From the NCBI GenBank assembly GCA_964557535.1, contig CAZLAD010000001.1, positions 58,482-122,481 of the forward strand: a stretch of DNA of 64,000 bases, read 5' to 3'. The position numbers were made by a program, and so were the translations under genes. The notes beneath the pieces were generated by a model. The model searched no databases. It was given only the letters and a program-made list of their open reading frames with translations, and was not told where the DNA came from. Origin of the DNA: an uncultured Candidatus Saccharibacteria bacterium. Lineage in GTDB: Bacteria > Patescibacteriota > Minisyncoccia > Phycocordibacterales > CSBR16-119. This document shows, in pieces, positions 12,448-63,926 of the stretch (its first letter is position 1; the number at the start of each line of letters is the position of its first letter).

Positions 12448-12477
12448 GTTTTGGGTATAACATTTGAAAATGTCGTA

Positions 12478-12582
12478 TTGTTAAAAGTTCGCGTACGCGG
12501 ATTTTTAACAATATTTAGATTTATTAATATATTAATAAATTCATAAATCCGTAAATTCATAAACTAATTTATGAATTTACGG
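12478..12582. repeat. Cluster of three consecutive palindromes in the holB-to-GC-island spacer
   Basis: (1) TTGTTAAAA...TTTTAACAA enclosing the palindrome CGCGTACGCG (12478-12511). (2) A perfect 22-nt palindrome ATTTATTAATATATTAATAAAT (12519-12540). (3) CCGTAAATTCATAAA-ctaa-TTTATGAATTTACGG with 15-bp arms (12549-12582). Confidence 0.8.
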
Positions 12583-12638
12583 ATCTTAATACCTTACATC
12601 AGTTAGGTGATGCAAAGGTATTGAACTATTACGGAGAC

Positions 12639-12666
12639 TTGACAAGAATTTTGATTCGTGTATAAT
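12639..12666 (+). promoter_or_regulatory. Near-consensus sigma70 promoter (TTGACA-16-TATAAT)
   Basis: TTGACA at 12639-12644 and TATAAT at 12661-12666. An AAAGAGG RBS-like motif lies 10 nt upstream of the ATG at 12724. Confidence 0.7.
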
Positions 12667-12723
12667 ACCCCACGAACCAAAGCTCTTGTGGCAATATCGC
12701 CACATACAAAAGAGGTTCGCAAA

Positions 12724-13215
12724 ATGCCCCAATTCCTCAAGCGACCGTGGCACGTCCTCGGTCTGGTGGCCTTGTTGGCCATCGGTTATACGATCCCACT
12801 GCAGATGAAGGCCGCCAAGTTCGACAGCTACACCGCCAGCGCGCTGACCGTTCCGGATGATCCGGCGCTCGTGACCCACGACCGGTTGGCCGTGAGCTAC
12901 GAGAACCATTTCGCCAATTGGACCCTGATCGACGGCCGCGGCACCAGCACGGTGAGCGTGACCACGGATGACCCGTGGAGCGTGAGCACCAGCGAAAGCC
13001 CGCATTTCGAAGGATATCAGCATTACATCATCGAGAACTTCAAGCACGACGTGAACTTCAGCATTTCGGATGTGAACGTGAGCGCCCAGGTGGCCGGTGG
13101 CCTGCTGGTGCCCATCGTGGGCCCGGCGGACAGCGATCATCAGCGATGGAGCAGTACGGCCCGCGATTACCGTTTGGCAGTGCGCGTGGTGAACCTGCGA
13201 ACGTGTCGGTGCTAG
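12724..13215 (+). CDS. Secreted or exported hypothetical protein (about 164 aa) in a 60% GC cassette
   Basis: N-terminal hydrophobic signal/TM (WHVLGLVALLAIGYTIPLQ). GC3-rich, E. coli-like codon usage (ctg, ggc, agc, acc, ccg), which is foreign to the host. It has its own promoter upstream and a terminator downstream. The antisense ORF 12586..13221 is judged an artefact. Confidence 0.55.
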   Translation: MPQFLKRPWHVLGLVALLAIGYTIPLQMKAAKFDSYTASALTVPDDPALVTHDRLAVSYENHFANWTLIDGRGTSTVSVTTDDPWSVSTSESPHFEGYQHYIIENFKHDVNFSISDVNVSAQVAGGLLVPIVGPADSDHQRWSSTARDYRLAVRVVNLRTCRC

Positions 13216-13285
13216 AAGCACGAGCTTCCTAGCACCTTCACTCTTTCCGCCCGCACGGGAACCCCCGAGCGAGTAGGAAACCCCG

Positions 13286-13319
13286 AACCCCGGCCCGTAA
13301 GCCGGGGTTCTTCTTTTTT
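13286..13319 (+). terminator. Rho-independent terminator of the GC-rich cassette
   Basis: Stem AACCCCGGC/GCCGGGGTT with loop CCGTAA, followed by TCTTCTTTTTTA. Confidence 0.8.
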
Positions 13320-13333
13320 ATAAAACAAATTTC

Positions 13334-13342
13334 TGCTACAAT
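13334..13342 (+). promoter_or_regulatory. Extended -10 TGcTACAAT 6 nt upstream of the frr ATG (leaderless)
   Basis: TGCTACAAT, then ttgccc, then ATG at 13349. Confidence 0.55.
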
Positions 13343-13348
13343 TTGCCC

Positions 13349-13903
13349 ATGCAATTTAATTTCAAACCTTTCGAAGACGCGGTCAAAAATACCAAAGATT
13401 GGCTTACCAAAGAATACGCCTCGCTTCATACCGGCGCTGCGAGTCCGATGGTTCTTGACGGTATCATGGTTGATTCTTATGGTACGCGTCAGCCGATCAA
13501 AAACGTCGCCTCGATTTCGATCGAAGACCCAAAAACTTTGCGTGTGATGCCGTGGGACAAGGGTCAGCTCAAAGAAATCGAAAAAGAAATCATGACTTCG
13601 GACCTTGGACTTTCTGTTGTAATCGATGCCACCGGGCTTCGCGTGATTTTTCCCATGCTTACGACCGAGACCCGTGAAAAACTTGTTAAGGTTTTAAAAA
13701 CCAAACTCGAAGACGCGCGAGTAACTGTTCGCAAGGAGCGCGAAAACAATTTACGAGAAATTGATCGTATGGCGCGCGAAGGTGAAATGTCCGAGGACGA
13801 GAAAATCCGCGCCAAGGATCGTTTGCAGGGTATAGTCGATGAAGCCAATACCGATCTTGAAAAGATATTTTTAGCCAAAGAAGCCGTTGTAATGGGTAAA
13901 TAA
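13349..13903 (+). CDS. frr: Ribosome recycling factor
   Basis: Full-length RRF similarity (…HTGAASPMVLDGIMVDSYG…TREKLVKVLKTKLEDARVTVRKERENNLREI…). The ORF track starts at a TTG at 13343. Confidence 0.9.
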   Translation: MQFNFKPFEDAVKNTKDWLTKEYASLHTGAASPMVLDGIMVDSYGTRQPIKNVASISIEDPKTLRVMPWDKGQLKEIEKEIMTSDLGLSVVIDATGLRVIFPMLTTETREKLVKVLKTKLEDARVTVRKERENNLREIDRMAREGEMSEDEKIRAKDRLQGIVDEANTDLEKIFLAKEAVVMGK

Positions 13904-30773: not shown

Positions 30774-31298
30774 TTACATCCCAAAAGTTTCTCTGAGAGA
30801 CTTTTCGGTCACGGGGTCGATGTGTTGCGTGACGATGATCATGATTTCGTCAGCGAGATTCATGTCAGTTTTTATATTCATAAACAAATGTTCAAAAGGG
30901 TAGGGCGAGATCCACACAGAATTTTTCATACACAAAAATCCAGCTTTTTTGAGGATGTAGCGGATCGAGTCGCGCTCGCTTTTTCTCGATTCGGGGAAGT
31001 CCAGCATAACCATGCGCCAGTAGCCATCCCAGCGTGTATCGACGAGGCTGGTCGGAGTGCTAAGTTTGATATTTCGGAGTTTGTTTCGTCCCTCAGCTGT
31101 TAGACGTAGAAAAGACGACCGGTCGGTTGGGATTTCCTCTATAAGCCCGGATTCGGCCATGTTTTTGAGGCTTCGAGTTATGGCATATTTCTCGGCCGAA
31201 TCGCTTTCTAGGGCGAAAATTTCGCGGTTTATGGCCTTCTTGGAGCCCAATTTCTCGAGAATTTGCTTTTGGAGATTGGATTTTCTTGACATGCCCAA
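30774..31298 (-). CDS. PaaX-family winged-helix regulator-like protein (paralog 1), divergent from grpE
   Basis: C-terminal WDGYWRMVMLDFPESRKSERDSIRYILKKAGFLCMKNSVWISPYPFE matches the PaaX_C-type signature W..W..v.fD.pe....R..lr..L...GF..lq.SvW..P. It is paralogous to 35886..36455. Confidence 0.6.
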   Translation of the reverse strand: MGMSRKSNLQKQILEKLGSKKAINREIFALESDSAEKYAITRSLKNMAESGLIEEIPTDRSSFLRLTAEGRNKLRNIKLSTPTSLVDTRWDGYWRMVMLDFPESRKSERDSIRYILKKAGFLCMKNSVWISPYPFEHLFMNIKTDMNLADEIMIIVTQHIDPVTEKSLRETFGM

Positions 31299-31349
31299 AA
31301 TGTAGCATATAATACTTTAACTAGCAAGTTTTCCACGGTCGTGAAAAAC

Positions 31350-31383: not shown

Positions 31384-31926
31384 ATGAATGATGAATTAGA
31401 TAATGAAATAGAATTTACTGACGAGGACGGAGAATCGAGCCAAGCTGACAAGATCAAAAAGCTTCGGTCCGAACTCAAGGAGTCCAAAGACCAGTCGCAA
31501 AAGAATCTAGATGGCTGGCAACGCGCTCTCGCGGACTATGCGAACCTCCAGAAGACTTCGAACGAGCAGATGAAGGAACTCAAAAGTTATGTGCTCGAGG
31601 GTTTTGTCGAAGAACTTCTGCCTACGCTCGATGCGTTTGAGATGGCGATGAAGAACAAGGAGACGTGGGAATCAGTTTCAGAGAATTGGCGCAAGGGAAT
31701 CGAATACATTTACGAGCAACTTCGCGCGATTCTCACGAACAATGGAGTGACCGAAATTGGCGATACGAAAGAAAAGTTTAATCCAGAACACCATCACGCG
31801 ATCGAAGAAATTGAAACGAGCGATGCTTCTAAAGATCACACCATTTCCGAAGTTGTTCAGAAAGGTTACAAGTCGGCGAAGGGTGTCATCAGGCCAGCGA
31901 AAGTGAAAATATTTATTAAAAAATAA
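31384..31926 (+). CDS. grpE: Nucleotide exchange factor GrpE
   Basis: Acidic N-terminus, coiled coil, GrpE core (YANLQKTS...LPTLDAFEMA...FNPEHHHAI). Confidence 0.9.
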   Translation: MNDELDNEIEFTDEDGESSQADKIKKLRSELKESKDQSQKNLDGWQRALADYANLQKTSNEQMKELKSYVLEGFVEELLPTLDAFEMAMKNKETWESVSENWRKGIEYIYEQLRAILTNNGVTEIGDTKEKFNPEHHHAIEEIETSDASKDHTISEVVQKGYKSAKGVIRPAKVKIFIKK

Positions 31927-31948
31927 TTATTAGCATAATTCAAAAAAT

Positions 31949-33835
31949 ATGAGCAAAATTATTGGAATCGATTTAGGAACTACAAACAGTGCTGTCGCCA
32001 TCATTGAGGGTGGTCAGCCGAAAATTATTGAGAATGCGGAGGGGATGAGAACGACGCCCTCGATTGTTGCTTTGGCCAAAAACGGCGACACGATGGTGGG
32101 TGTAACAGCCAAGCGCCAATCAATCACAAATCCGAAAAACACGATCTACCAAATCAAACGCTTTATCGGCCACAATTTCGACGAACCAGAAGTCCAGAAG
32201 GATATAAAAGCCGTGCCTTTTGAAACGCGAAAATCTGCAAATGGCGGTATCGAAGTAAAATTCGGTGAAGACTGGAAACGTCCAGAAGAAATCTCGGCGA
32301 TGATTCTCCAGAAAATCAAAGCCGACGTTGAAGCGAAAATCGGCCAGAAAGTTACCGAAGCTGTCATCACTGTTCCGGCATATTTCAACGACGCACAACG
32401 CCAAGCGACAAAAGATGCCGGTAAAATTGCCGGACTCGACGTCAAACGCATCATCAACGAACCGACTGCGGCGGCCCTCGCGTACGGATTTAACAAGAAA
32501 AAAGATGAAAAGGTAGTCGTCTTTGACTTTGGAGGTGGAACATATGACGTATCTATTCTTGAAGTATCCGAAGACACGATCGAGGTCAAGTCTACCGACG
32601 GCGACGCGCACTTGGGCGGCAAGGATATCGATCAGAAAATCATGGACTGGCTAGCTGAAGGATTCCAAAAGGAAAATGGTATTGATTTGCGTAAAGATCC
32701 ATTGGCTAAACAGCGTCTCGACGATGCCGCGGAGAAAGCGAAAATCGAACTCTCAACTGCTGTGCAGTCAGAAATCAACATTCCATTTATCACATCTGGT
32801 GAAGCCGGACCACTTCACCTCGTTCGCACTATGAAGCGTGCCGAGCTCGAAGAACTAACACGTGAATTTATTGATCGTGCGATGATGATCACCAAGCGTG
32901 CGATGGAAGCTTCGCCGTTCAAAATTTCTGATATCAACGAAGTTATTCTCGTCGGCGGTCAGACTCGCATGCCGGCTATTCAGGAAGCTGTCGAAAAATT
33001 CTTTGGCAAAAAGGTAAACCTATCTGTTAACCCAGACGAAGTTGTAGCACTCGGCGCAGCGATTCAGGGCGGAGTTTTGCAGGGTGATGTCAAAGACGTT
33101 CTCTTGCTCGACGTGATCCCGCTCTCACTCGGTATAGAGACTTTGGGAGGTGTTGCGACAAAACTCATCGAGAAAAATACGACAATTCCCGCAAGCAAGT
33201 CACAAGTGTTCTCAACCGCAGCTGACAATCAGACTTCAACAGAGATTCACATCGTTCAGGGCGAGCGACCAATGGCAACGGACAACAAATCTCTCGGACG
33301 ATTCGTCCTCGAAGGAATTCCGCCGGCGCCACGAGGCGTACCGCAAATTGAAGTTACGTTTGATATCGACGCGAACGGAATCTTGAATGTTAAGGCGAAA
33401 GACAAAACTTCCGGCAAAGAACAGTCTATCCGTATCGAAGCCTCGTCCGGTCTCTCTGATGCTGAAATTGAGAAGATGAAGAAAGATGCCGAGCTCAATG
33501 CCGAAGCAGACAAGAAAAAGAAAGAACTTGTTGATATAAAAAATAATGCCGAGATGACGATATTCACTGCAGAAAAAGCAATGAAAGACGCCGAAGGCAA
33601 AATTGGCGATGATGTGAAGAAGTCTGTTGAAGAAAAAGTTGCTAAACTAAAGGAGGTCAAAGAGTTGCCAGATCACCATACCGATGACGGTGGACGCCTA
33701 AAGTCTGCGACAGATGAGCTTATGACCGAAATGCAGAAAATCGGCGAGGCGATGAGTAAGGCGCAGGCCGCTGAACCAAAAGCCGAAGAAACAAAAAAGG
33801 ATGACAATATTCAAGACGCTGAGGTTCAAAACTAA
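31949..33835 (+). CDS. dnaK: Chaperone DnaK (Hsp70)
   Basis: [25 protein letters not shown] and [11 protein letters not shown] motifs. Full length. Confidence 0.97.
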
Positions 33836-44344: not shown

Positions 44345-44459
44345 TCCCGTAAGAGATGTTTTGTTAAAAACAATCACTTCGCGGGTAGGGGTTCGAAGAG
44401 TTATTTAATTACAAAAATTAACAGGGTACGCAAATTAATAATTTGCTATCTCTAACGGG
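44345..44459 (+). repeat. IR-bounded element E2 (115 nt) ending at the ATG of a 49-aa membrane ORF
   Basis: TCCCGTAAGAGAT ... TACGCAAATTAATAATTTGCTATCTCTAACGGG followed by ATG. It begins 14 nt after the trpS stop. Confidence 0.75.
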
Positions 44460-44609
44460 ATGAAAAATTTTGTTTTGGGTTTGGTTTTTGTTTTGATTTT
44501 GATTGCGGTTATCGTTTTATTCAAGAGAATGGGCGAAGAGAAAGAACCAGAACTTAGGAGCTTGGACGAATTTTCAAATATTCAGGAGGGCGACATATTG
44601 CCACAATAG
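44460..44609 (+). CDS. Small hydrophobic protein (49 aa), putative
   Basis: MKNFVLGLVFVLILIAVIVLFKRMGEEKEPELRSLDEFSNIQEGDILPQ. The start codon is the ATG that terminates element E2. A terminator follows. It is below the ORF-track length cutoff. Confidence 0.4.
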   Translation: MKNFVLGLVFVLILIAVIVLFKRMGEEKEPELRSLDEFSNIQEGDILPQ

Positions 44610-44628: not shown

Positions 44629-44652
44629 AAGGCGGACCATGTGGTCCGCCTT
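44629..44652. terminator. Bidirectional hairpin terminator
   Basis: AAGGCGGACCA-TG-TGGTCCGCCTT perfect palindrome, between the small ORF (+) and the 44681 gene (-). Confidence 0.65.
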
Positions 44653-44680
44653 CGCGTTTCGCTCTATGAGCGAGGTTGTT

Positions 44681-45373
44681 CTATGAACCTGCCGGCCGAA
44701 TACCGTTGTTCACGAAGCCGCTTCCGTTGCCCATCTGTACTTCGACTCGTGTTCCTTTCGGAACAGAGAAGAGATACTGGTCATTTCCAGCGATTGTCCC
44801 CGTGGGGACGGCCGTCGGGGCAGGTGCTGAAGCCTGTTGTGTCGGCGGGGGCTGATGGCTTGTCGCTGGCGATGTGCTGGTCTGCCAGAAACGATTCCAT
44901 GCGTCACGTAACACTCCGAGCAATGCCAATGCCAGGGCCAACAGAAAAAGGCCGACCAAGATGGCGAGAACAGGCGGCACCCAATCGAAGTGTTTACCCC
45001 AGTTGATACCGGAGTATTTCGTTCGAGCGTTACAGCCGTCGGCTGCCATCTTGGCATCCAACGGCTTGCCTTGGACCACGAAGGTCGTATCCACGTGTTG
45101 CGACACGCAGATATCCTTTTCGTAGGCCGTGCCGGAGCACCACCTGCGGGTTTCCTTGCTGGGCACCGCTTTCTCGTAGGAGAGATGCACGGTGTCTCCG
45201 CGCAGGTGCAGGCCCTCGAAGTTCTCCTTGGTGAAGGGCGAGGGATTGTTGCAGGCGCTCGCGAAGAGCAGGATGATGCCCAAAAGGGCGATCACTGGGA
45301 GCTTCCAGGTCGGTTTCAGGTTGTTCATGATCATTGGGAATGTGCCGGTCAGGGCGGTTTGGTTTATAAGCAT
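44681..45373 (-). CDS. Putative lipoprotein or membrane protein with a Pro/Thr/Gln-rich linker, in a 57% GC island
   Basis: Signal plus lipobox-like ...LLFASAC. A second TM (VLAILVGLFLLALALALLGVL) and a low-complexity PATSHQPPPTQQASAPAPTAVPT segment. Foreign codon usage. The start is probably at an internal Met (45334 or 45328). Antisense ORFs are artefacts. Confidence 0.5.
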   Translation of the reverse strand: MLINQTALTGTFPMIMNNLKPTWKLPVIALLGIILLFASACNNPSPFTKENFEGLHLRGDTVHLSYEKAVPSKETRRWCSGTAYEKDICVSQHVDTTFVVQGKPLDAKMAADGCNARTKYSGINWGKHFDWVPPVLAILVGLFLLALALALLGVLRDAWNRFWQTSTSPATSHQPPPTQQASAPAPTAVPTGTIAGNDQYLFSVPKGTRVEVQMGNGSGFVNNGIRPAGS

Positions 45374-45558
45374 ACTAGCATATTAAATTGTTTATGTCAA
45401 TAGTTTAAAAGGGAAGTCAATTTTACCCCTTGCTTTTTTAAAACAAGTGTGTTACTATGCATCCACAATCAAATATTGTTCTGTAGATTTCCGAAAACGT
45501 TAATTATTTCGATGTTCTAGAGAGCTTTCGAGATTAATTAATATTTTAGGAATTTTCT

Positions 45559-51875: not shown

Positions 51876-52430
51876 ATGAATTTGGAATCAAAAATCGAAT
51901 CTTTTTTGTTTTGGAAAGGTGAACCGCAGACAGAGTGGGAGATAGCTGTTGCTATGCGAGTTGATCCGGCTGAAATTCCGGGAGCCCTGGCAAAGCTCGA
52001 AGAATCGCTAAAAGGCCATGGTGTTACACTTGTCCGTCATGGAAACAAGGTGATGCTTGGCACGAATCCCGAAATGTCACATTTTTTTGAAGAACTTCAG
52101 AAAGAAGAACTGAGCAAAGAACTTTCCAAAGCTGCGCTCGAGACACTTTCGATAATTCTCTACAAGGATTCGGTGACGCGAAGCGAGATAAATTTTATTC
52201 GCGGAGTGAACTCAGGATACATCTTGAGAAATCTGGAAATTCGCGGATTGGTGGAGAAAGCAAACCAAAAAAACGATGCCCGCACGTATGTTTACAAGCC
52301 GACTCTCGAATTGTTATCATATCTCGGGGTTTCCAAGGTCTCCGATTTGCCACAGTTCGAAACGATCAGAAATACACTCGAGACCAAGCTCTCCGGTCAG
52401 CCAGATCAGGAAGGAAATGAATCCCGTTAG
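51876..52430 (+). CDS. scpB: Segregation and condensation protein B
   Basis: Tandem winged helices (ALETLSIILYKDSVTRSEINFIRGVNSGYILRNLEIRGLVEK). Confidence 0.85.
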   Translation: MNLESKIESFLFWKGEPQTEWEIAVAMRVDPAEIPGALAKLEESLKGHGVTLVRHGNKVMLGTNPEMSHFFEELQKEELSKELSKAALETLSIILYKDSVTRSEINFIRGVNSGYILRNLEIRGLVEKANQKNDARTYVYKPTLELLSYLGVSKVSDLPQFETIRNTLETKLSGQPDQEGNESR

Positions 52431-52539
52431 AGATTGATTGGTTACAAATTCAGAAAAAAGCGGGTAGAATACGAAGGGTAAATTAATTATAAATTTTAAT
52501 ACAAGCTACGTCGCGCCGGGTGCGACTATCTCTAACGGG
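52421..52539 (+). repeat. IR-bounded element E5 (119 nt); left IR overlaps the scpB stop codon
   Basis: ATCCCGTTAGAGAT at 52421-52434 contains the scpB TAG. ...GTCGCGCCGGGTGCGACTATCTCTAACGGG is followed by ATG (dacA-like). Confidence 0.75.
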
Positions 52540-53481
52540 ATGAAGATTAGAATTAAAGAATCCGAAAGACAAATTATATTTGCGATGGTCTTACTGGCCA
52601 TCGTGGGTGTTTTTTATGTTCGTCAAATAAATCAAGAAATTATTTTAGGTGAAATAAAAGACAAAGAAATTCTCGCATACGAGGAATCGATTAAACCGTT
52701 TTTGAACTTGGCGCTCGAGGCCAAATCTTTCGCTATTTATGACGCTGATATAAATAATTTTGTTTACAAGAAAAACGCCGAGAGCGCCATGCCGCTTGCA
52801 AGTCTGGCCAAAGTCATGAGCGCGATTGTGGTGATGGAGAATGCACCGGCCGACACGGTGTTTGAAATTTCCAAAGAATCGCTTGACCAAGCCGCCGATC
52901 ATGGACTTCTACTTCATGAGAAATGGACTCGTGACGAACTTTTGAAATTTGCGCTACTTGTCTCTTCAAATGACGCTATTCACGAGCTTGCACTTGAAAC
53001 AGGCCAGATCATGGATCCCGAAGCCAAAGACTCGCTCCAAGTTTTCGTAGCGCGTATGAATACCAAAGCATCCGAACTAGGGCTCAAAAGTTTTGTCTTC
53101 AAAAACGAATCAGGACTTGATCTAAATGAAGCAGAAAATGGTGCGTATGGTTCGGCGCGCGACATGGCCAAACTTTTTGCTTACGCGGTCAAAACCTATC
53201 CAGAAATTTTTGACGTAACTCGCACCAAGATTGCGACGATTGCCTCACTTGATAAATCGCACAACATCGACAACACCAACACTGTCGTCGAAGAAATTCC
53301 TGGAATTGTCGCTTCAAAGACTGGATTTACGACTCTCACTGGTGGGAATTTGGTCGTAGCGACAACCCCCGATGCCAAATCAACTCGCGTTATGATAGTC
53401 ATGGGATCGACATATGATGAACGCTTTACCGACATGAAAACTCTCACCAGTGCCGTGGCCCATAGTAACAATAATTTATGA
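52540..53481 (+). CDS. dacA: D-alanyl-D-alanine carboxypeptidase (S11, PBP5/6-like)
   Basis: SLAKVMS (SxxK), SSND (SxN) and KTGFT (KTG) motifs. N-terminal TM or signal. Confidence 0.8.
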   Translation: MKIRIKESERQIIFAMVLLAIVGVFYVRQINQEIILGEIKDKEILAYEESIKPFLNLALEAKSFAIYDADINNFVYKKNAESAMPLASLAKVMSAIVVMENAPADTVFEISKESLDQAADHGLLLHEKWTRDELLKFALLVSSNDAIHELALETGQIMDPEAKDSLQVFVARMNTKASELGLKSFVFKNESGLDLNEAENGAYGSARDMAKLFAYAVKTYPEIFDVTRTKIATIASLDKSHNIDNTNTVVEEIPGIVASKTGFTTLTGGNLVVATTPDAKSTRVMIVMGSTYDERFTDMKTLTSAVAHSNNNL

Positions 53482-55410: not shown

Positions 55411-56514
55411 ATGTCATCTCTTGGAAAAGTCGACAAGTTTTTTCTTTATACGGTTATTGCGCTACTCGTACTTGGCTACGTCAGTTTCGTATCCGCGTCT
55501 TTTGGTGTACTCGCCAAAAGTTCTTCTAAGTTTTGGAGCATGATCATTTCACAATCAATTGGACTTGTTCTCGGAGGATTTTTCATGTATTGGTTTTCGC
55601 GCATTGATTATAAGGTCTGGCGCAAATACGCCTTTTTTATTTTTATCGCTTCAATCGGACTCACACTTCTCGTTTTTATACCAGCGATCAGTCTCGAGCA
55701 TGGCGGAGCGAGGCGTTGGATTGATATCGGACCATTTTCTTTTCAGCCCGTCGAAGTTTTAAAAATCGCATTTGTGATGTACTTTGCCGGCTGGCTCTCG
55801 TGGGTCAAAGGTCGCGCCAAAGAGATAAAATATGGAATCTTGCCAATGCTTATCATGCTTGGAATTGTTGCGGGAATACTTTTACAACAACCAGACACAA
55901 AAAGCATAATTCTTTTGTTTGTTGCCGGATCATCAATGTTGCTTTTGTCTGGCGTACCATGGAAATATGTTTTGTATGGAATGATAATCGCAGTTTTGTT
56001 TTTCGGGGTCTTGGCTTTTTCGAAATCTTATCTGATGAATCGCGTAAAAACTTTTCTTGATCCAAGTGCCGACAGATTGGGTTCTTCTTACCAGTTAAAT
56101 AATGCAATTATCGCCGTTGGTTCTGGGGGAATTTTTGGTCGTGGTTTGGGTCAAAGTATTCAAAAATTTACTTATTTGCCAGAACCCCAGGGCGACTCGA
56201 TTTTCGCCGTAATTGGTGAAGAATTTGGCCTCGTCGGATCTCTAATCATCGTATTGCTCTTTATTATTTTTGGTCTAAGGGGTCTCCGGATAGCTTATCG
56301 AGCACCGGATTCGTTCGGTAGACTAATGGTCGCCGGAATTGTTATACTGATGGTAGGGCAATCATTTTTAAATATTGCTTCGATTATTGGTCTTTTCCCT
56401 TTGACGGGAGTTCCGCTTGTTTTTATAAGTCAGGGGGGGACAGCTCTGATTGTCGCCATGATGGCCACAGGGATTATTCTAAACGTTTCTAGATATCAGT
56501 TACAAAATCGGTAG
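55411..56514 (+). CDS. ftsW: SEDS-family peptidoglycan glycosyltransferase FtsW/RodA
   Basis: 10 TM topology. Conserved loop NAIIAVGSGGIFGRGLGQSIQKFTYLPEPQGDSIFAVIGEEFG. Confidence 0.88.
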   Translation: MSSLGKVDKFFLYTVIALLVLGYVSFVSASFGVLAKSSSKFWSMIISQSIGLVLGGFFMYWFSRIDYKVWRKYAFFIFIASIGLTLLVFIPAISLEHGGARRWIDIGPFSFQPVEVLKIAFVMYFAGWLSWVKGRAKEIKYGILPMLIMLGIVAGILLQQPDTKSIILLFVAGSSMLLLSGVPWKYVLYGMIIAVLFFGVLAFSKSYLMNRVKTFLDPSADRLGSSYQLNNAIIAVGSGGIFGRGLGQSIQKFTYLPEPQGDSIFAVIGEEFGLVGSLIIVLLFIIFGLRGLRIAYRAPDSFGRLMVAGIVILMVGQSFLNIASIIGLFPLTGVPLVFISQGGTALIVAMMATGIILNVSRYQLQNR

Positions 56515-56521
56515 GATATAA

Positions 56522-56638
56522 ATCCCGTTAGAGATGTCGTAGTCAAAATTATTCAGGAAGGTTATAAAATAATGGTCGTCAATTACTTACAAAATATTAA
56601 GTCAGATACGCAAACCAAAGTTTGCTATCTCTAACAGG
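56522..56638 (+). repeat. IR-bounded element E6 (117 nt) filling the ftsW-murG spacer
   Basis: ATCCCGTTAGAGAT ... GGTCGTCAATTACTTACAAAAT...GATACGCAAACCAAAGTTTGCTATCTCTAACAGG followed by the murG ATG. Confidence 0.75.
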
Positions 56639-57769
56639 ATGAAAATTGTTATTACAGGCGGTGGTTCGGGAGGGCATTTTTATCCTGCTATCGCAATAGC
56701 AGAGAAGTTGAACGAACTTGCATTGGCTGAAAAAATTTTAGATCTTGAGCTTTTTTATATTGCCGACACCCCATACGACAAACGCGCGCTCGACGACAAT
56801 CGAATGACTTTTTTGGAACTAAATACTGGAAAACAAAGAACATATTTTTCTGTTCAAAATTTTTTTGATATCTTCAAAACTTTTTTCGCGACAATTCGAG
56901 CAATTTTTATCCTTTATAAAATTTTTCCAGATGTTGTTTTCTCCAAAGGTGGCTATCCGTCGGTTCCGGTGACTATTGCTTCGAGAGTGCTTGGGATACC
57001 TGTCGTTATCCACGAATCAGATTCTGTACCTGGACGCGCCAACAAAATGGCTGGTAAGTGGGCAAAACGTATTGCGATTTCTTACAAAGAAGCTTCGGAT
57101 TATTTCCCCAAAGAAAAAACCGCTTTCGTTGGACACATTGTCAGAAAAGAAATTCGAACACCGCTTAGAGAGGGGGCTTTTGAATATCTAAAATTAAAGT
57201 CTTCTTTGCCTGTTATTTTTATTTTGGGTGGTTCGCAAGGTGCCAAGATAATAAACGAGACGATTTTAAATGCTTTGCCAGAGCTTGTCACGAGATATCA
57301 AATTATCCATCAGACAGGAGTAAAAAATTTTGAAGAAGTGAAAATTATTGCCGATCTAAATCTAAAAGAATCAGAAGCCAAACAAAATTATTATCCATAT
57401 CCATATCTAAACAAACTAGCCATACGTATGGCGGCGGGGGTCGCGGAGCTTGTCGTCTCTCGTGCGGGAGCAAATTCTATTGCCGAAATAGCATCATGGG
57501 GACTACCGTCTATCATCATCCCGATAACAAAAACAAATGGTGATCACCAGCGCAACAATGCGTTTAACTATGCTGAAACAGGAGCATGTGTAGTAATCGA
57601 AGAATCCAATTTGGCTCCGAATGTTTTGATCGAAGAAATAGATAGGCTTTTTGCTGATACAGCGACCTTTAAAAACATGAAGGAAGCAACATCAAAATTT
57701 GTTTTTCCAGACGCCGAAGAAAAAATTGCCCGAGAGATAATTAATATCGGACTTTCCCATGAGCAATAA
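56639..57769 (+). CDS. murG: UDP-GlcNAc:MurNAc-pentapeptide GlcNAc transferase
   Basis: N-terminal GGGSGGHFYPA loop. GT-B fold. C-terminal UDP-binding region. Confidence 0.9.
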   Translation: MKIVITGGGSGGHFYPAIAIAEKLNELALAEKILDLELFYIADTPYDKRALDDNRMTFLELNTGKQRTYFSVQNFFDIFKTFFATIRAIFILYKIFPDVVFSKGGYPSVPVTIASRVLGIPVVIHESDSVPGRANKMAGKWAKRIAISYKEASDYFPKEKTAFVGHIVRKEIRTPLREGAFEYLKLKSSLPVIFILGGSQGAKIINETILNALPELVTRYQIIHQTGVKNFEEVKIIADLNLKESEAKQNYYPYPYLNKLAIRMAAGVAELVVSRAGANSIAEIASWGLPSIIIPITKTNGDHQRNNAFNYAETGACVVIEESNLAPNVLIEEIDRLFADTATFKNMKEATSKFVFPDAEEKIAREIINIGLSHEQ

Positions 57770-60937: not shown

Positions 60938-61056
60938 TCCCGGTAGTGATACCTCGGTTTTGGATGGGATAATTAGTAATCTAACCACGGTCGTGAATTC
61001 TTTACAAAAAACTAACTTCGATACGCAAATTTAATAAATTTGCTATCACTATCGGG
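60938..61056 (+). repeat. IR-bounded element E7 (119 nt) ending at the ATG of the 61057 gene
   Basis: TCCCGGTAGTGATA ... CCACGGTCGTGAATTCTTTACAAAAAACTAACTTCGATACGCAAATTTAATAAATTTGCTATCACTATCGGG followed by ATG. It contains the same CACGGTCGTG motif as the grpE promoter region. Confidence 0.75.
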
Positions 61057-61386
61057 ATGATAAAAATCCTCGTCGGTGTGATTCTCTTGCTTGTTGTGCT
61101 CGGACTTTTGGGTGTATCTGTCCAGCACGATGTTATCGAACATGAAGGTGTTCAAGAAAACGTCTCGTATGTCTCGACAGGGGTCGTGGGATTTTGGAAT
61201 ACATATTTATCTCAACCCGCGCAATGGTTATGGCAAGAACTCATTGTAAATATTCTCTGGGAAACTTTTGCTCGAAATATGGAACGTCTACGTGACGGCG
61301 AGACTCCGACTGACTTCACCAATTCGCACCTCGACGACTGGCCAAGTATCCCGGAACTTATCGACAATTACAACGCGAATAATTAA
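61057..61386 (+). CDS. Hypothetical membrane-anchored protein (109 aa)
   Basis: N-terminal TM (IKILVGVILLLVVLGLLGV). No motifs. Confidence 0.45.
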   Translation: MIKILVGVILLLVVLGLLGVSVQHDVIEHEGVQENVSYVSTGVVGFWNTYLSQPAQWLWQELIVNILWETFARNMERLRDGETPTDFTNSHLDDWPSIPELIDNYNANN

Positions 61387-63003: not shown

Positions 63004-63765
63004 CTAGAATCTTCCTCCAGCGCCACCACCACCAAAGCTTCCGCCTCCGAAACCACCTCCGCCAGAGTAACCACCGGAAGATCCACTACTGTAGCCACCA
63101 CTGTATCCTCCGTAACTTCCGCCGCCGCCTGACTGGTTGCTTACCCAGACTATGAACAAGATTGCGACGACGACAACGATTGCCAGTATCACGATCAACC
63201 ACACCGCCATCCGTGTTGTGGCTTCTTCACGAAGCCTCTTCACTTCAGCGCGCTCCTCTGGCGTCATCAGGATGTTCCTGTTGATTTCCTGGAGTCCTGC
63301 TTGTAGACCTTCGAACCACTTCTCCTCCTTCAAAAAGGGGATCATAGTGTCCTCGATGATTTGCTTGCAAGTCGCATCGGGCAAGTCGTCCTCATGGCCG
63401 TATCCTGTGGCAATGAAAAGATCTCGGTCGCCTTCGCCTTGACCCATGGATAAAAGGATCAGAATTCCGCTGTCGCGGTCTTTGCGGCCGACGCCCCATT
63501 TGTTGCCGATCTCGAATGCCGTGGTTGCAACATCAGCACCGTCAAGATCAGATAGAATGACGATGACGATCTGACTCAACGTGCTATCGCTATATGCGCG
63601 CAGTTGTTGTTCGAGACTCGCCACCTCTTCGGGCGTGAGTACGCCAGCGATGTCGTTCATGAACGTAGCGGGCTCGGGTCGTTCGGGGATGTTGTTGCCC
63701 CGCATGTTCGAAGTTCCAAGCATGCTGAGCATGACAAGGAAGAAAGACAAAAGGCGTGTTTTCAT
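63004..63765 (-). CDS. TPM-domain protein (YgcG/TLP18.3-like) with C-terminal TM and Gly/Ser/Tyr-rich tail
   Basis: Signal peptide. TPM fold signature (IVIVILSDLDGADV...GNKWGVGRKDRDSGILILLSMG...IATGYGHE). TM. GGYSGG repeats. GC about 52%. Confidence 0.75.
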   Translation of the reverse strand: MKTRLLSFFLVMLSMLGTSNMRGNNIPERPEPATFMNDIAGVLTPEEVASLEQQLRAYSDSTLSQIVIVILSDLDGADVATTAFEIGNKWGVGRKDRDSGILILLSMGQGEGDRDLFIATGYGHEDDLPDATCKQIIEDTMIPFLKEEKWFEGLQAGLQEINRNILMTPEERAEVKRLREEATTRMAVWLIVILAIVVVVAILFIVWVSNQSGGGGSYGGYSGGYSSGSSGGYSGGGGFGGGSFGGGGAGGRF

Positions 63766-63895
63766 GAGTGTTGGTTCGGTTTGGTTTGTCAGAGGTCAAA
63801 AATCCTTATGCCTTATATCATATAAACAGTATAATGTCAATACAAAAAGATAGGGAATTATGAGAAGAAAAGTTTAATACAAAAGAAGAAGCCCC

Positions 63896-63926
63896 GGCAT
63901 TGCGCCGGGGCTTCGTTCGAAAACGA
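63896..63926 (-). terminator. Hairpin terminator for a minus-strand gene entering from the right edge
   Basis: Stem GCCCCGGC/GCCGGGGC with loop ATTGC. T-rich on the minus strand after the stem. Confidence 0.5.

What the first reader, a model, noticed from the sequence alone, without database searches (positions are those of the whole stretch)
12639..13319. Self-contained 60% GC expression cassette: consensus sigma70 promoter, E. coli-like codon usage ORF for a secreted protein, intrinsic terminator
The components are TTGACA-16-TATAAT (the best promoter match in the window), an AAAGAGG SD-like element, a 164-aa ORF with a signal/TM segment and codon usage (ctg/ggc/agc/ccg/acc bias, GC3-rich) alien to the 40% GC host, and a canonical GC-stem/U-tract terminator. 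It is preceded by the three-palindrome cluster at 12478-12582. This is the strongest candidate for a recently acquired, highly expressed foreign gene, perhaps an effector or surface protein.
Basis: seen in the sequence. Interest (0 to 1): 0.65.

Follow-up and report, generated by a model that had tools for sequence, protein, structure and literature searches.

The report
Hypervariable secreted-protein cassette in a Patescibacterium
The GC-rich "foreign-looking" gene is real, but it is not a recent import: it is a fast-evolving, mosaic, probably secreted orphan protein that a small clade of Paceibacteria (candidate phyla radiation) keeps in one fixed, strongly expressed slot between two housekeeping genes, written in a codon set unlike the rest of the genome.

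Summary
Observation: confirmed with small corrections. The region holds a 12/12 TTGACA-16-TATAAT promoter, a 5'UTR hairpin, a 163-codon ORF with an N-terminal hydrophobic segment, 3' hairpins and a GC-stem/T-run terminator. GC is about 0.60 against about 0.42. GC3 is 0.82 against 0.30-0.50 for housekeeping genes.

Interpretation: "recent foreign acquisition" is not supported. The genome is a Paceibacteria/Nomurabacteria-like MAG. The same unit sits between holB and frr in every cassette-bearing relative found (frr 71-99% identical). All have a perfect promoter, GC3 of 0.79-0.88 and the same codon set (Ser AGC, Val GTG, Ile ATC, Phe TTC, Lys AAG). One relative has an empty site, and distant relatives lack it.

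No homologue exists outside this locus in 1.8 billion representative proteins, plasmids, phages or E. coli. The codon set is not E. coli-like.

The gene bodies are nearly unalignable between species (20-40% aa), while the flanks are 68-80% nt identical. Near-identical strains differ by sharply bounded block replacements. One pair has a 100% identical cassette 5' part inside flanks only 80-93% identical.

Best reading: a clade-restricted, self-contained, probably highly expressed locus for a hypervariable secreted protein whose alleles recombine across lineages. Why the codon set persists is unexplained.

The parts
12476..12584 (.). Three AT-rich palindromes in the holB-promoter spacer: 12476-12513, about 12519-12542, and 12547-12584 (perfect 17-nt arms). 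They are specific to this species and their role is unknown. The first looks like a holB terminator. The others could be operators or an inserted element.
   Evidence: Absent from the relatives, where the promoter follows the holB stop by about 20-60 nt.
12639..12666 (+). Consensus sigma-70-type promoter TTGACAAG-N14-TATAAT. Conserved as 12/12 with a 16-nt spacer in all seven cassette-bearing loci where the upstream region had been fetched when the scan was run.
12673..12723 (+). 5' UTR of about 50 nt. A 5'-proximal stem-loop (outer stem CGAACC/GGUUCG, inner GUGGC/GCCAC) is followed by an unpaired A-rich stretch before the AUG. It contains the SD-like AAAGAGG (12709-12715). Inferred to stabilise the mRNA.
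   Evidence: -17 kcal/mol, z = -4.4. Every relative's UTR also folds into a 5'-proximal hairpin (z -1.6 to -4.8) despite different sequence.
12724..13215 (+). CDS of 163 aa plus TAG, an orphan family. It has an N-terminal hydrophobic signal/anchor (about 12748-12798), a central D-x-P-W motif and a C-terminal GPAD...LRTCRC. GC3 is 0.82 and the codon set is non-host.
12996..13078 (+). Variable patch inside the CDS. Six substitutions, all transversions and one giving GAG to TAG, separate the window from assembly L001, with the rest of the cassette identical. Relatives with L001's flank haplotype (L226, L227) keep the intact ORF.
13197..13236 (+). Conserved 3' end. GCGAACGT leads into the hairpin GGUGCUAGAAGC-ACGA-GCUUCCUAGCACC, which contains the stop codon (13213-13215). 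The hairpin is shared with L084, L004/L083 and L002. In L002 one stem pair is U-A changed to C-G, a compensatory change.
   Evidence: read; folds; window-L004 19/19 nt at 95%
13243..13280 (+). Second 3'UTR hairpin.
13285..13319 (+). Intrinsic terminator: GAACCCCGGC-CCGUAA-GCCGGGGUUC plus a U-run. It insulates frr from the cassette promoter.
   Evidence: Conserved at 86-89% in L002.
13334..13351 (+). frr's own extended -10 (TGCTACAAT) ends 6 nt before the frr ATG (13349). It is not part of the cassette and marks its right-hand limit. The same sequence follows holB directly in the empty site of L085.

Best explanation
The region is a monocistronic, self-contained expression unit for a hypervariable, Sec-exported orphan protein. 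It is fixed at the holB|frr junction of one small clade of Paceibacteria (Patescibacteria/CPR).

How it most likely works:
- A consensus sigma-70 promoter drives strong transcription. This is inferred from the sequence, which is 12/12 in every lineage.
- A 5'-proximal stem-loop and two to four 3' hairpins plus an intrinsic terminator protect the mRNA ends and insulate frr. This is inferred.
- The ORF carries an N-terminal signal peptide. Relatives have an AxA cleavage motif followed by a Pro-rich linker. The window's copy looks more like a signal anchor.
- The body diverges extremely fast and is rebuilt by block-wise recombination between alleles circulating in the clade. This is shown by comparison of the loci.
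- The promoter/UTR and the last ~20 nt of the ORF plus the terminator stay conserved.

This pattern is what is expected of a surface-exposed or secreted protein under diversifying selection, for example in host-cell or phage interaction of an episymbiont. That function is inferred, not shown.

The GC3-rich codon set is a stable property of the whole allele pool, not a trace of recent transfer. It is most likely maintained by selection on synonymous sites (mRNA stability or expression), or inherited from an old, unidentified source and preserved by continual exchange within the pool. This last step is the least certain.
For: Same architecture at the same junction:
- It is present in L001, L002, L004, L005, L006, L082, L083, L084 and L220-L227.
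- All examined cassette ORFs have GC1/2/3 of about 0.5-0.58/0.40-0.48/0.79-0.88.

Shared codon set:
- Ser AGC is 0.67 against 0.07 in the host. Val GTG is 0.85 against 0.16, with GTC only 0.09. Phe TTC is 0.98, Ile ATC 0.93 and Lys AAG 0.86.
- A log-likelihood score trained only on other species' cassettes ranks the window ORF first among all window ORFs, at 0.62 bit/codon. The next is 0.18 and the median is -0.76.
- It is not the genome's translational optimum: S4 has GC3 0.31 and DnaK 0.48.

Homology and rate:
- The family members are homologous. They share D-x-P/G-W, (S/G)PAD and WRTxRC* motifs.
- They are only 20-40% identical where frr is 71-89% identical.
- Cassette interiors are mostly unalignable at the DNA level, while the flanks are 68-80% identical.

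Mosaicism:
- L004 against L083: the flanks are 80-93% identical. The cassette from the holB stop through 443 nt is 100% identical. A block of about 160 nt is then unalignable, and the rest is near-identical.
- L082 against L220: the flanks are identical, with a block of about 50-75 nt swapped in the signal peptide.
- L004 against L082: a 117-nt segment is 93% identical inside flanks that are 77% identical.

Substitution pattern:
- L005 against L224: the cassette has pS 0.017 and pN 0.013. holB has pS 0.137 and pN 0.004. frr has pS 0.074 and pN 0.007.

Distribution and integrity:
- Homologues occur only in this context among 5.8 billion and 1.84 billion protein sets.
- The intact ORF recurs in the three loci read from three independent sequencing runs; five contigs carry the exact protein on record.
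- holB|frr adjacency with a gap of 11-60 nt is the common arrangement in Paceibacteria, and L085 is an empty site within the clade.
Against: - No expression or localisation data exist, so promoter strength and export are inferred from sequence.
- No signal-peptide predictor was available. The window's own N-terminus lacks a clear AxA cleavage site.
- AF2 gave no usable model (pLDDT 36-40), so the fold and function are unknown.
- One assembly (L001) carries a nonsense codon, so the gene is dispensable at least sometimes.
- Low synonymous divergence could reflect recent sweeps rather than selection on codons.
- The number of independent lineages is small (about 6-7 alleles).
- The cause of the codon set is not established.
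- Recombination donors were not identified.
Confidence: 0.7

Rival explanations
1. Recently acquired foreign gene. A GC-rich donor's gene with its own promoter and terminator was inserted into this 42% GC genome a short time ago and has not yet ameliorated.
For: Composition and codon usage are strongly atypical. One clade member has an empty site. The unit's limits coincide with a clean insertion relative to that empty site.
Against: - The same slot, promoter, UTR plan, terminator and codon set occur in lineages whose frr is only 71-88% identical.
- No homologue was found in any donor, plasmid, phage or E. coli.
- No integrase, tRNA or repeats are present.
- The codon set is more extreme than a plain GC-rich genome average. 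It is not E. coli-like.
Confidence: 0.05
2. Intragenomic antigenic-variation system. The cassette is a single expression site whose central blocks are replaced by gene conversion from promoterless silent donor segments elsewhere in the same genome, as in Anaplasma msp2, Neisseria pilE/pilS or Treponema tprK.
For: The ends are conserved and the centre is hypervariable. Near-identical genomes differ by sharply bounded block replacements. There is a 6-substitution patch in L001.
Against: No partial copy or other long GC-rich, dialect-matching segment exists in the 64-kb window, except an unrelated gene at 44681-45373. No recombinase is adjacent. Cross-lineage identity (L004/L083, L004/L082) points to exchange between genomes. 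Only about 6-10% of a genome was inspected, assuming a genome of about 0.7-1 Mb (assumed from typical CPR genome sizes, not measured here).
Confidence: 0.15
3. The GC richness is a by-product of GC-biased gene conversion at a recombination hotspot, not of selection on codons or of foreign origin.
For: The locus is demonstrably recombinogenic. GC3 is raised while GC1 and GC2 change less.
Against: The bias is codon-specific, not just AT to GC. Val GTG is 0.85 but GTC falls from 0.31 to 0.09. Ser AGC is 0.67 while TCC and TCG stay at about 0.1. His and Ala barely change. GC2 and amino-acid composition are also shifted.
Confidence: 0.12
4. It is a structured non-coding RNA gene, and the ORF is incidental to GC richness.
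For: Strong promoter plus terminator. GC-rich in an AT-rich genome. The whole transcript folds better than dinucleotide shuffles (z = -4.6). The antisense frame is also open.
Against: - No Rfam family matches, even at E of 10 or less.
- There is strong 3-periodicity (GC3 0.82 against GC2 0.45) in all alleles.
- The reading frame and an N-terminal signal segment are kept wherever the 5' end is present, across unalignable sequences; the one exception is L220, where a block swap puts the canonical ATG out of frame.
- CDS folding is no better than synonymous-codon shuffles: z is -0.04 for the window and 0.1 to -1.4 for the others, with one at -2.7.
- The reverse strand also gives z = -3.7.
Confidence: 0.03
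5. Assembly chimera or contamination: a fragment of a GC-rich organism was mis-joined into a CPR contig.
For: There is an abrupt compositional step at both ends.
Against: The identical junctions were recovered in every independent assembly read, from different runs and projects (ENA, JGI, Logan, NCBI). Homologous cassettes lie at the same junction in other species.
Confidence: 0.01

Closest known systems
Mycoplasma variable surface lipoprotein loci (vlp, vsp, vsa)
   Same: A wall-less or reduced symbiont genome has a conserved promoter and 5' region, followed by a signal peptide and a highly divergent external domain. Variation arises by recombination of blocks. (Comparison from general knowledge of these systems.)
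   Different: Here there is one copy per genome at a housekeeping junction. No tandem gene family, no promoter homopolymer tract, no invertase or vis sites, and no internal tandem repeats were seen. Signal peptides look like AxA (SPase I) types rather than canonical lipoboxes. The protein family is unrelated. The distinct codon set has no counterpart that I know of.
Single-expression-site segmental gene conversion (Anaplasma msp2/p44, Neisseria pilE/pilS, Treponema tprK, Borrelia vlsE)
   Same: Conserved 5' and 3' ends flank a hypervariable centre. Sharp-edged replaced blocks distinguish otherwise identical genomes.
   Different: No silent donor cassettes were detected in the 64 kb available. 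Identical cassette segments are shared between lineages whose flanks differ by 7-23%, which indicates inter-genome exchange.
Compositionally atypical ORFan or genomic islet from horizontal transfer
   Same: Atypical GC and codon usage, an orphan protein and a clean presence/absence polymorphism.
   Different: It is conserved in position and composition across deep relatives. No donor or mobility apparatus was found. Composition has not ameliorated.
E. coli lpp / ompA-type high-output monocistronic units (strong promoter, stabilising 5' stem-loop or structured mRNA, efficient terminator)
   Same: The same design logic is inferred: consensus promoter, 5'-proximal hairpin, structured 3' end and an exported product.
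   Different: There is no sequence or protein relationship. Expression level and mRNA half-life are untested here.

Membership tests
Recently transferred genomic islet | Composition and codon usage deviate from the host | tested here: met
   GC 0.60 against 0.42. GC3 0.82 against 0.30-0.50 for housekeeping genes. Codon fractions correlate r about 0.2 with host genes.
Recently transferred genomic islet | Absent from close relatives at the orthologous site | tested here: not met
   Present at holB|frr in all loci with frr 71-99% identical except L085. Absent only from L085 and from relatives with frr at 62% or below.
Recently transferred genomic islet | Homologues in a plausible donor lineage or mobile element | tested here: not met
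   Only 13 proteins were found. All whose locus was fetched lie in the same CPR context. None were found in plasmids, phages, IMG/VR or E. coli.
Recently transferred genomic islet | Mobility signatures (integrase, tRNA target, flanking direct repeats) | tested here: not met
   Neighbours are the mur genes, mreB, holB, frr and rseP. No tRNA or Rfam hit exists in the 64 kb. No flanking repeats were found.
Structured non-coding RNA | Match to a described RNA family | tested here: not met
   Rfam 15 at gathering threshold and at E of 10 or less returned only noise hits on hairpins.
Structured non-coding RNA | No coding periodicity; structure exceeds what composition gives | tested here: not met
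   GC1/2/3 are 0.58/0.45/0.82 in all alleles. CDS minimum free energy against synonymous-codon shuffles gives z = -0.04.
Gene-conversion antigenic variation (msp2 / pilE / tprK type) | One expression site with conserved ends and a hypervariable centre | tested here: met
   The promoter/UTR and the last ~20 nt plus the terminator are conserved, while the interior is unalignable.
Gene-conversion antigenic variation (msp2 / pilE / tprK type) | Sharp-edged block replacement between otherwise identical genomes | tested here: met
   L004/L083 have replaced blocks of about 160 nt and 18 nt. L082/L220 have a replaced block of about 50-75 nt.
Gene-conversion antigenic variation (msp2 / pilE / tprK type) | Silent donor copies in the same genome | tested here: inconclusive
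   None in the 64-kb window by repeat search, blastn, tblastx and GC/codon scans. The rest of the genome was not available.
Mycoplasma-type variable lipoprotein locus | Lipobox signal peptide; multigene tandem family, or invertase or homopolymer switch | tested here: not met
   Signal peptides end in AxA followed by C or S (ASA-C, ALA-C, VSA-S, TTA-S), and the window's has none of these. The gene is single-copy, with no recombinase and no variable homopolymer.
Diversity-generating retroelement target | Template/variable repeat pair, nearby reverse transcriptase, adenine-specific changes | tested here: not met
   No second copy of any cassette segment exists in the window. Neighbours are housekeeping genes. 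Differences fall at G, C and A, and as indel-containing blocks.
Sec-exported protein | N-terminal n-h-c signal peptide | tested here: inconclusive
   A basic n-region and a hydrophobic core of 14-17 residues occur in every allele whose 5' end was recovered (L084 is cut off by its contig end). An AxA motif is present in 5 of the 6 such alleles. AF2 models a helix at 8-22. No dedicated predictor was available.

The most novel reading that the evidence does not exclude
This may be the first contingency or antigenic-variation-like locus described in Patescibacteria. It would be a single, maximally expressed slot holding a secreted or surface protein. Its alleles would form a clade-wide, horizontally exchanged mosaic pool. 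Their non-host codon set (GC3 about 0.8, AGC/GTG/ATC/TTC/AAG) would be actively maintained, either by selection on synonymous sites for an unusually stable or efficiently handled mRNA, or because the variable blocks are copied from a dedicated GC-rich donor reservoir not yet seen.
Probability: 0.25. Interest if true: 0.75.

Novelty: new variant of a known kind. Interest (0 to 1): 0.55.

Why it matters
CPR/Patescibacteria are thought to live attached to host cells, but the molecules that mediate contact and specificity are almost unknown. This locus combines five features:
- the strongest possible promoter;
- an exported orphan protein;
- extreme divergence;
- block-wise recombination;
- allele sharing across lineages.

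That makes it a concrete candidate for a host- or phage-interaction determinant under an arms race.

The persistence of a codon set opposite to the genome's own, across lineages whose housekeeping genes differ by 20-30% at the DNA level, is also a clean natural test case. It bears on what maintains synonymous-site composition: selection on mRNA, biased conversion or a hidden donor pool.

It is also a caution for genome scans. Atypical composition alone would have mislabelled this as a recent transfer.

Tried and rejected
- Rfam on the whole window and permissively on the island gave nothing.
- Pfam on the window protein and seven relatives, and a profile search of PDB sequences, gave nothing meaningful.
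- AF2 as a single sequence and with a 7-sequence alignment gave pLDDT 39.6 and 36.1. No fold search was run because matches to such models are meaningless.
- DGR idea, prompted by six clustered substitutions against L001: no template repeat exists, the changes are not A-specific, and other genes show similar SNP clusters between these assemblies.
- Silent donor cassettes: none in 64 kb.
- Viral origin: the alignment was too variable for a protein-pattern scan. A DNA motif scan of IMG/VR gave 55 chance hits, none encoding the family. INPHARED phages and PLSDB plasmids gave no match.
- E. coli likeness: no DNA match, and the codon correlation is only about 0.5.
- Selection for mRNA structure inside the CDS: synonymous-codon shuffles give z near 0 (the first attempt timed out).
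- Stop-codon read-through through the hairpin: the downstream frames are open for 19-35 codons but not conserved (read). Rejected.
- Translational-optimum explanation: the ribosomal protein S4, RpoA and DnaK genes do not use the codon set.
- Literature searches for a prior description in CPR found none.
Full report
WHAT IS THERE

- Promoter: TTGACA-16-TATAAT at 12639-12666 scores 12/12.
- 5'UTR: about 50 nt, folding into a 5'-proximal stem-loop (-17 kcal/mol, z = -4.4).
- ORF: 12724-13215, 163 codons plus TAG.
- 3' end: a hairpin containing the stop codon (13208-13236), a second hairpin, and a 10-bp GC-rich terminator stem followed by a T-run (13285-13319).
- GC is 0.57-0.60, against about 0.42 for the window.

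Three corrections are needed.
- The ORF has 163 codons, not 164.
- A second perfect promoter lies at 31286-31313, before grpE-dnaK.
- The SD-like AAAGAGG is partly inside the UTR stem and is not conserved in relatives.

CODING OR RNA?

The evidence favours coding.
- Rfam finds nothing.
- The ORF has textbook coding periodicity, with GC1/2/3 of 0.58/0.45/0.82.
- The folding excess of the whole transcript (z = -4.6) comes from the UTR hairpins. The CDS folds no better than versions with synonymous codons permuted (z = -0.04).
- The reverse strand scores similarly.
- The long antisense ORF is a by-product of avoiding the codons TTA, CTA and TCA.

WHOSE GENOME, AND IS THE ISLAND NEW?

The flanking genes are the mur genes, mreB, a holB-like gene, frr, rseP and a sigma-domain gene. 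frr-anchored scans place the window in Patescibacteria, in a Paceibacteria/Nomurabacteria-like group.

holB directly followed by frr, with a gap of 11-60 nt, is the common arrangement. holB lies directly upstream of frr in 132 of 170 loci.

In the window's own clade (frr 71-99% identical) the junction carries the same kind of unit in every locus but one. The cassette-bearing loci are L001, L002, L004, L005, L006, L082, L083, L084, L220-L224 and L225-L227. In the loci compared in detail the unit has these parts:
- a perfect TTGACAAG-N14-TATAAT promoter;
- a 46-54-nt UTR with a 5' hairpin;
- a 157-194-codon ORF with GC3 of 0.79-0.88;
- hairpins around or after the stop codon;
- a GC-stem terminator;
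- frr's own TGCTA(C/A/G)AAT -10 element.

L085 (frr 74% identical) is an empty site. There holB's stop is followed after 40 nt by frr. Relatives with frr at 62% or below have no such island. About 20 of them have unrelated insertions of host-like composition at the same junction.

The exact window protein is on record on five contigs. The three loci read, from three different sequencing runs, carry it with the same junctions. This excludes chimerism.

NO DONOR

Four kinds of search found nothing outside this locus.
- A word-indexed search of 5.8 billion proteins returned one protein.
- An exhaustive HMMER pass over 1.84 billion representatives returned two.
- A family profile search returned five.
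- Cluster listing added a few more.

Every one whose locus was fetched sits at holB|frr in a CPR contig. Plasmids, phages, IMG/VR and E. coli genomes give nothing.

THE CODON SET

Pooled over seven cassettes, usage differs sharply from the host.

| Codon | Cassettes | Host |
|---|---|---|
| Ser AGC | 0.67 | 0.07 |
| Val GTG | 0.85 | 0.16 |
| Val GTC | 0.09 | 0.31 |
| Phe TTC | 0.98 | 0.30 |
| Ile ATC | 0.93 | 0.35 |
| Lys AAG | 0.86 | 0.23 |
| Leu CTG | 0.46 | 0.07 |

Ala and His hardly change.

- A score trained only on other species' cassettes singles out the window ORF among all ORFs of the window.
- The set is not the genome's translational optimum. S4 has GC3 0.31, RpoA 0.39 and DnaK 0.48.
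- It is not E. coli-like. The correlation with E. coli is r about 0.5, whereas host genes correlate r = 0.78 with E. coli. AAG, GAG, GTG and AGC go the opposite way to highly expressed E. coli genes.
- From general knowledge, it resembles an exaggerated version of usage in GC-rich bacteria. I could not test a specific donor.
- Simple GC-biased conversion does not predict GTG far above GTC, or AGC far above TCC and TCG.

HYPERVARIABILITY AND MOSAICISM

The proteins are homologous. They share D-x-(P/G)-W, (S/G)PAD and a C-terminal WRTxRC motif. They are only 20-40% identical where frr is 71-89% identical.

At the DNA level the interiors are mostly unalignable, while holB and frr are 68-80% identical. 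Against this background there are patches of anomalous identity.
- L004 and L083 have flanks 80-93% identical. From the holB stop through 443 nt of cassette they are 100% identical. A block of about 160 nt is then unalignable, and after a further 18-nt variable patch the rest through the terminator is near-identical.
- L004 and L082 share 117 nt at 93% identity, inside flanks that are 77% identical.
- L082 and L220 have identical flanks. They differ by a swapped block of about 50-75 nt in the signal peptide. The swap also puts the canonical ATG out of frame.
- The window and L001 differ by six transversions within 85 nt, one of them a nonsense change. Two other strains with L001's flank haplotype keep the window's intact sequence.

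Within one species pair (L005/L224) the cassette shows pS 0.017 and pN 0.013. holB shows 0.137 and 0.004, and frr shows 0.074 and 0.007. Synonymous change is unusually low and non-synonymous change unusually high.

Allele type is not fully congruent with the frr tree. L002's cassette resembles L006's more than those of its nearer relatives.

MECHANISM

Shown:
- a fixed, discrete promoter-to-terminator unit;
- conserved ends and a hypervariable, recombining centre;
- a codon set shared by the whole allele pool;
- clade restriction.

Inferred:
- strong constitutive transcription;
- mRNA protection by the 5' stem-loop and 3' hairpins;
- insulation of the probably leaderless frr;
- Sec export, based on AxA motifs and Pro-rich linkers in relatives, and a signal-anchor-like segment in the window;
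- a surface or extracellular role under diversifying selection.

Unknown:
- the protein's fold and partner (AF2 pLDDT 36-40);
- the source of the replacement blocks. No silent copies exist in the 64 kb, so exchange between co-occurring genomes is currently the better-supported route;
- the force that maintains the codon set.

COMPARISON WITH KNOWN SYSTEMS

The locus works like the single-expression-site variable surface protein loci of reduced-genome bacteria, such as Mycoplasma vlp/vsa and Anaplasma msp2. In its expression design it resembles high-output monocistronic units such as E. coli lpp and ompA.

It fails the defining tests of those families that could be tested. It has no multigene family, no switch elements, no detected donors and no related protein.

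It also fails the tests for a recent genomic islet, a DGR target and a structured RNA.

I found no prior description in the searchable literature.

VERDICT

The 'recent foreign gene' reading is wrong on its own criterion.

What is there is a lineage-specific, mosaic, hypervariable secreted-protein cassette with an unexplained, stably maintained non-host codon set. It is of moderate interest and worth following up with population-level reads and complete genomes.

Noticed in passing
window 44640-45420 (minus strand; ORF 44681-45373, probable start at ATG 45334): A second self-contained, GC3-rich (0.70) orphan gene. It has a TTGACA-17-TAGTAT promoter with an upstream TG, a product with a lipobox-like LFASAC and a later TM segment, and a hairpin terminator. 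It has the second-highest score for the cassette codon set in the window and no Pfam hit.
   Followed up: partly
window 31286-31313 (+): A second perfect TTGACA-16-TATAAT promoter, upstream of the grpE-like and dnaK genes (31384-33835). The finding's promoter is therefore tied for best in the window, not unique.
   Followed up: partly
window 13334-13351; also L002, L004-L006, L082-L085 just upstream of frr: The frr ATG lies 6 nt after an extended -10 (TGCTACAAT) with no room for a leader. This suggests a leaderless frr mRNA. The arrangement is conserved in all relatives, including the empty site.
   Followed up: no
window 12476-12584: Three AT-rich palindromes, one with perfect 17-nt arms, lie between the holB stop and the cassette promoter. 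They are found only in this species (window, L001, L225-227). They could be a holB terminator plus operator-like sites, or a small inserted element.
   Followed up: partly
window 44440-44486, 52526-52558, 56619-56665, 61037-61083; inverted copies at 2574-2604, 52417-52447, 56510-56535; 132-nt inverted pair 2473-2604 / 56518-56649: A repeat family, GCTATCTCTAACGGGATG, ends in the start codon of several genes (ATG at 52540 and 56639, for example). Inverted copies lie about 100 nt upstream, so whole intergenic spacers could form long hairpins. L004 has an analogous CCCGATAGTGAT...ATCACTATCGGGATG pair before frr.
   Followed up: no
L224 2640-3100 (identical in L221 and L222): An extra module of about 430 nt lies between the cassette terminator and frr. 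It has no ORF, its own TTGACA...TGCTAAGCT promoter-like site and a terminator that duplicates the cassette's. It has no Rfam hit and folds with z = -4.05. L005 lacks it and looks like a terminator-to-terminator deletion. It may be an unknown small RNA or a decayed cassette.
   Followed up: partly
L001 10273-10355 (window 12996-13078): Six substitutions, all transversions, fall within 85 nt of an otherwise identical cassette. One creates a premature TAG. The assembly has 6.5x coverage, so this may be a short conversion tract, a private pseudogene or consensus errors.
   Followed up: partly
L009, L010, L015, L018, L025, L026, L047, L050, L071, L079, L081, L095, L097, L119, L122, L128, L151, L163 (between holB and frr): In about 20 of 132 more distant Paceibacteria loci the holB|frr junction holds unrelated insertions of 0.5-2.7 kb with host-like composition. 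Several encode small membrane or secreted proteins. The junction seems to be a general landing site for accessory genes.
   Followed up: partly
L220 940-1010 versus L082 1344-1410: A block swap in the signal-peptide region, between strains with identical flanks, changes length by 26 nt. The canonical ATG then runs into TAA after six codons. The new block still encodes a signal-peptide-like segment in the downstream frame, but without an obvious start codon. This may be an OFF allele.
   Followed up: no
window 13288-13326 and 63872-63910: The cassette terminator resembles, at 74% complementarity over 39 nt, another GC-stem/T-run hairpin near the window's end, next to a GC3-elevated TPM-domain gene (63004-63765, minus strand).
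   Followed up: no
window 1-64000: No tRNA, rRNA or any other Rfam family reaches its gathering score anywhere in the 64 kb.
   Followed up: no
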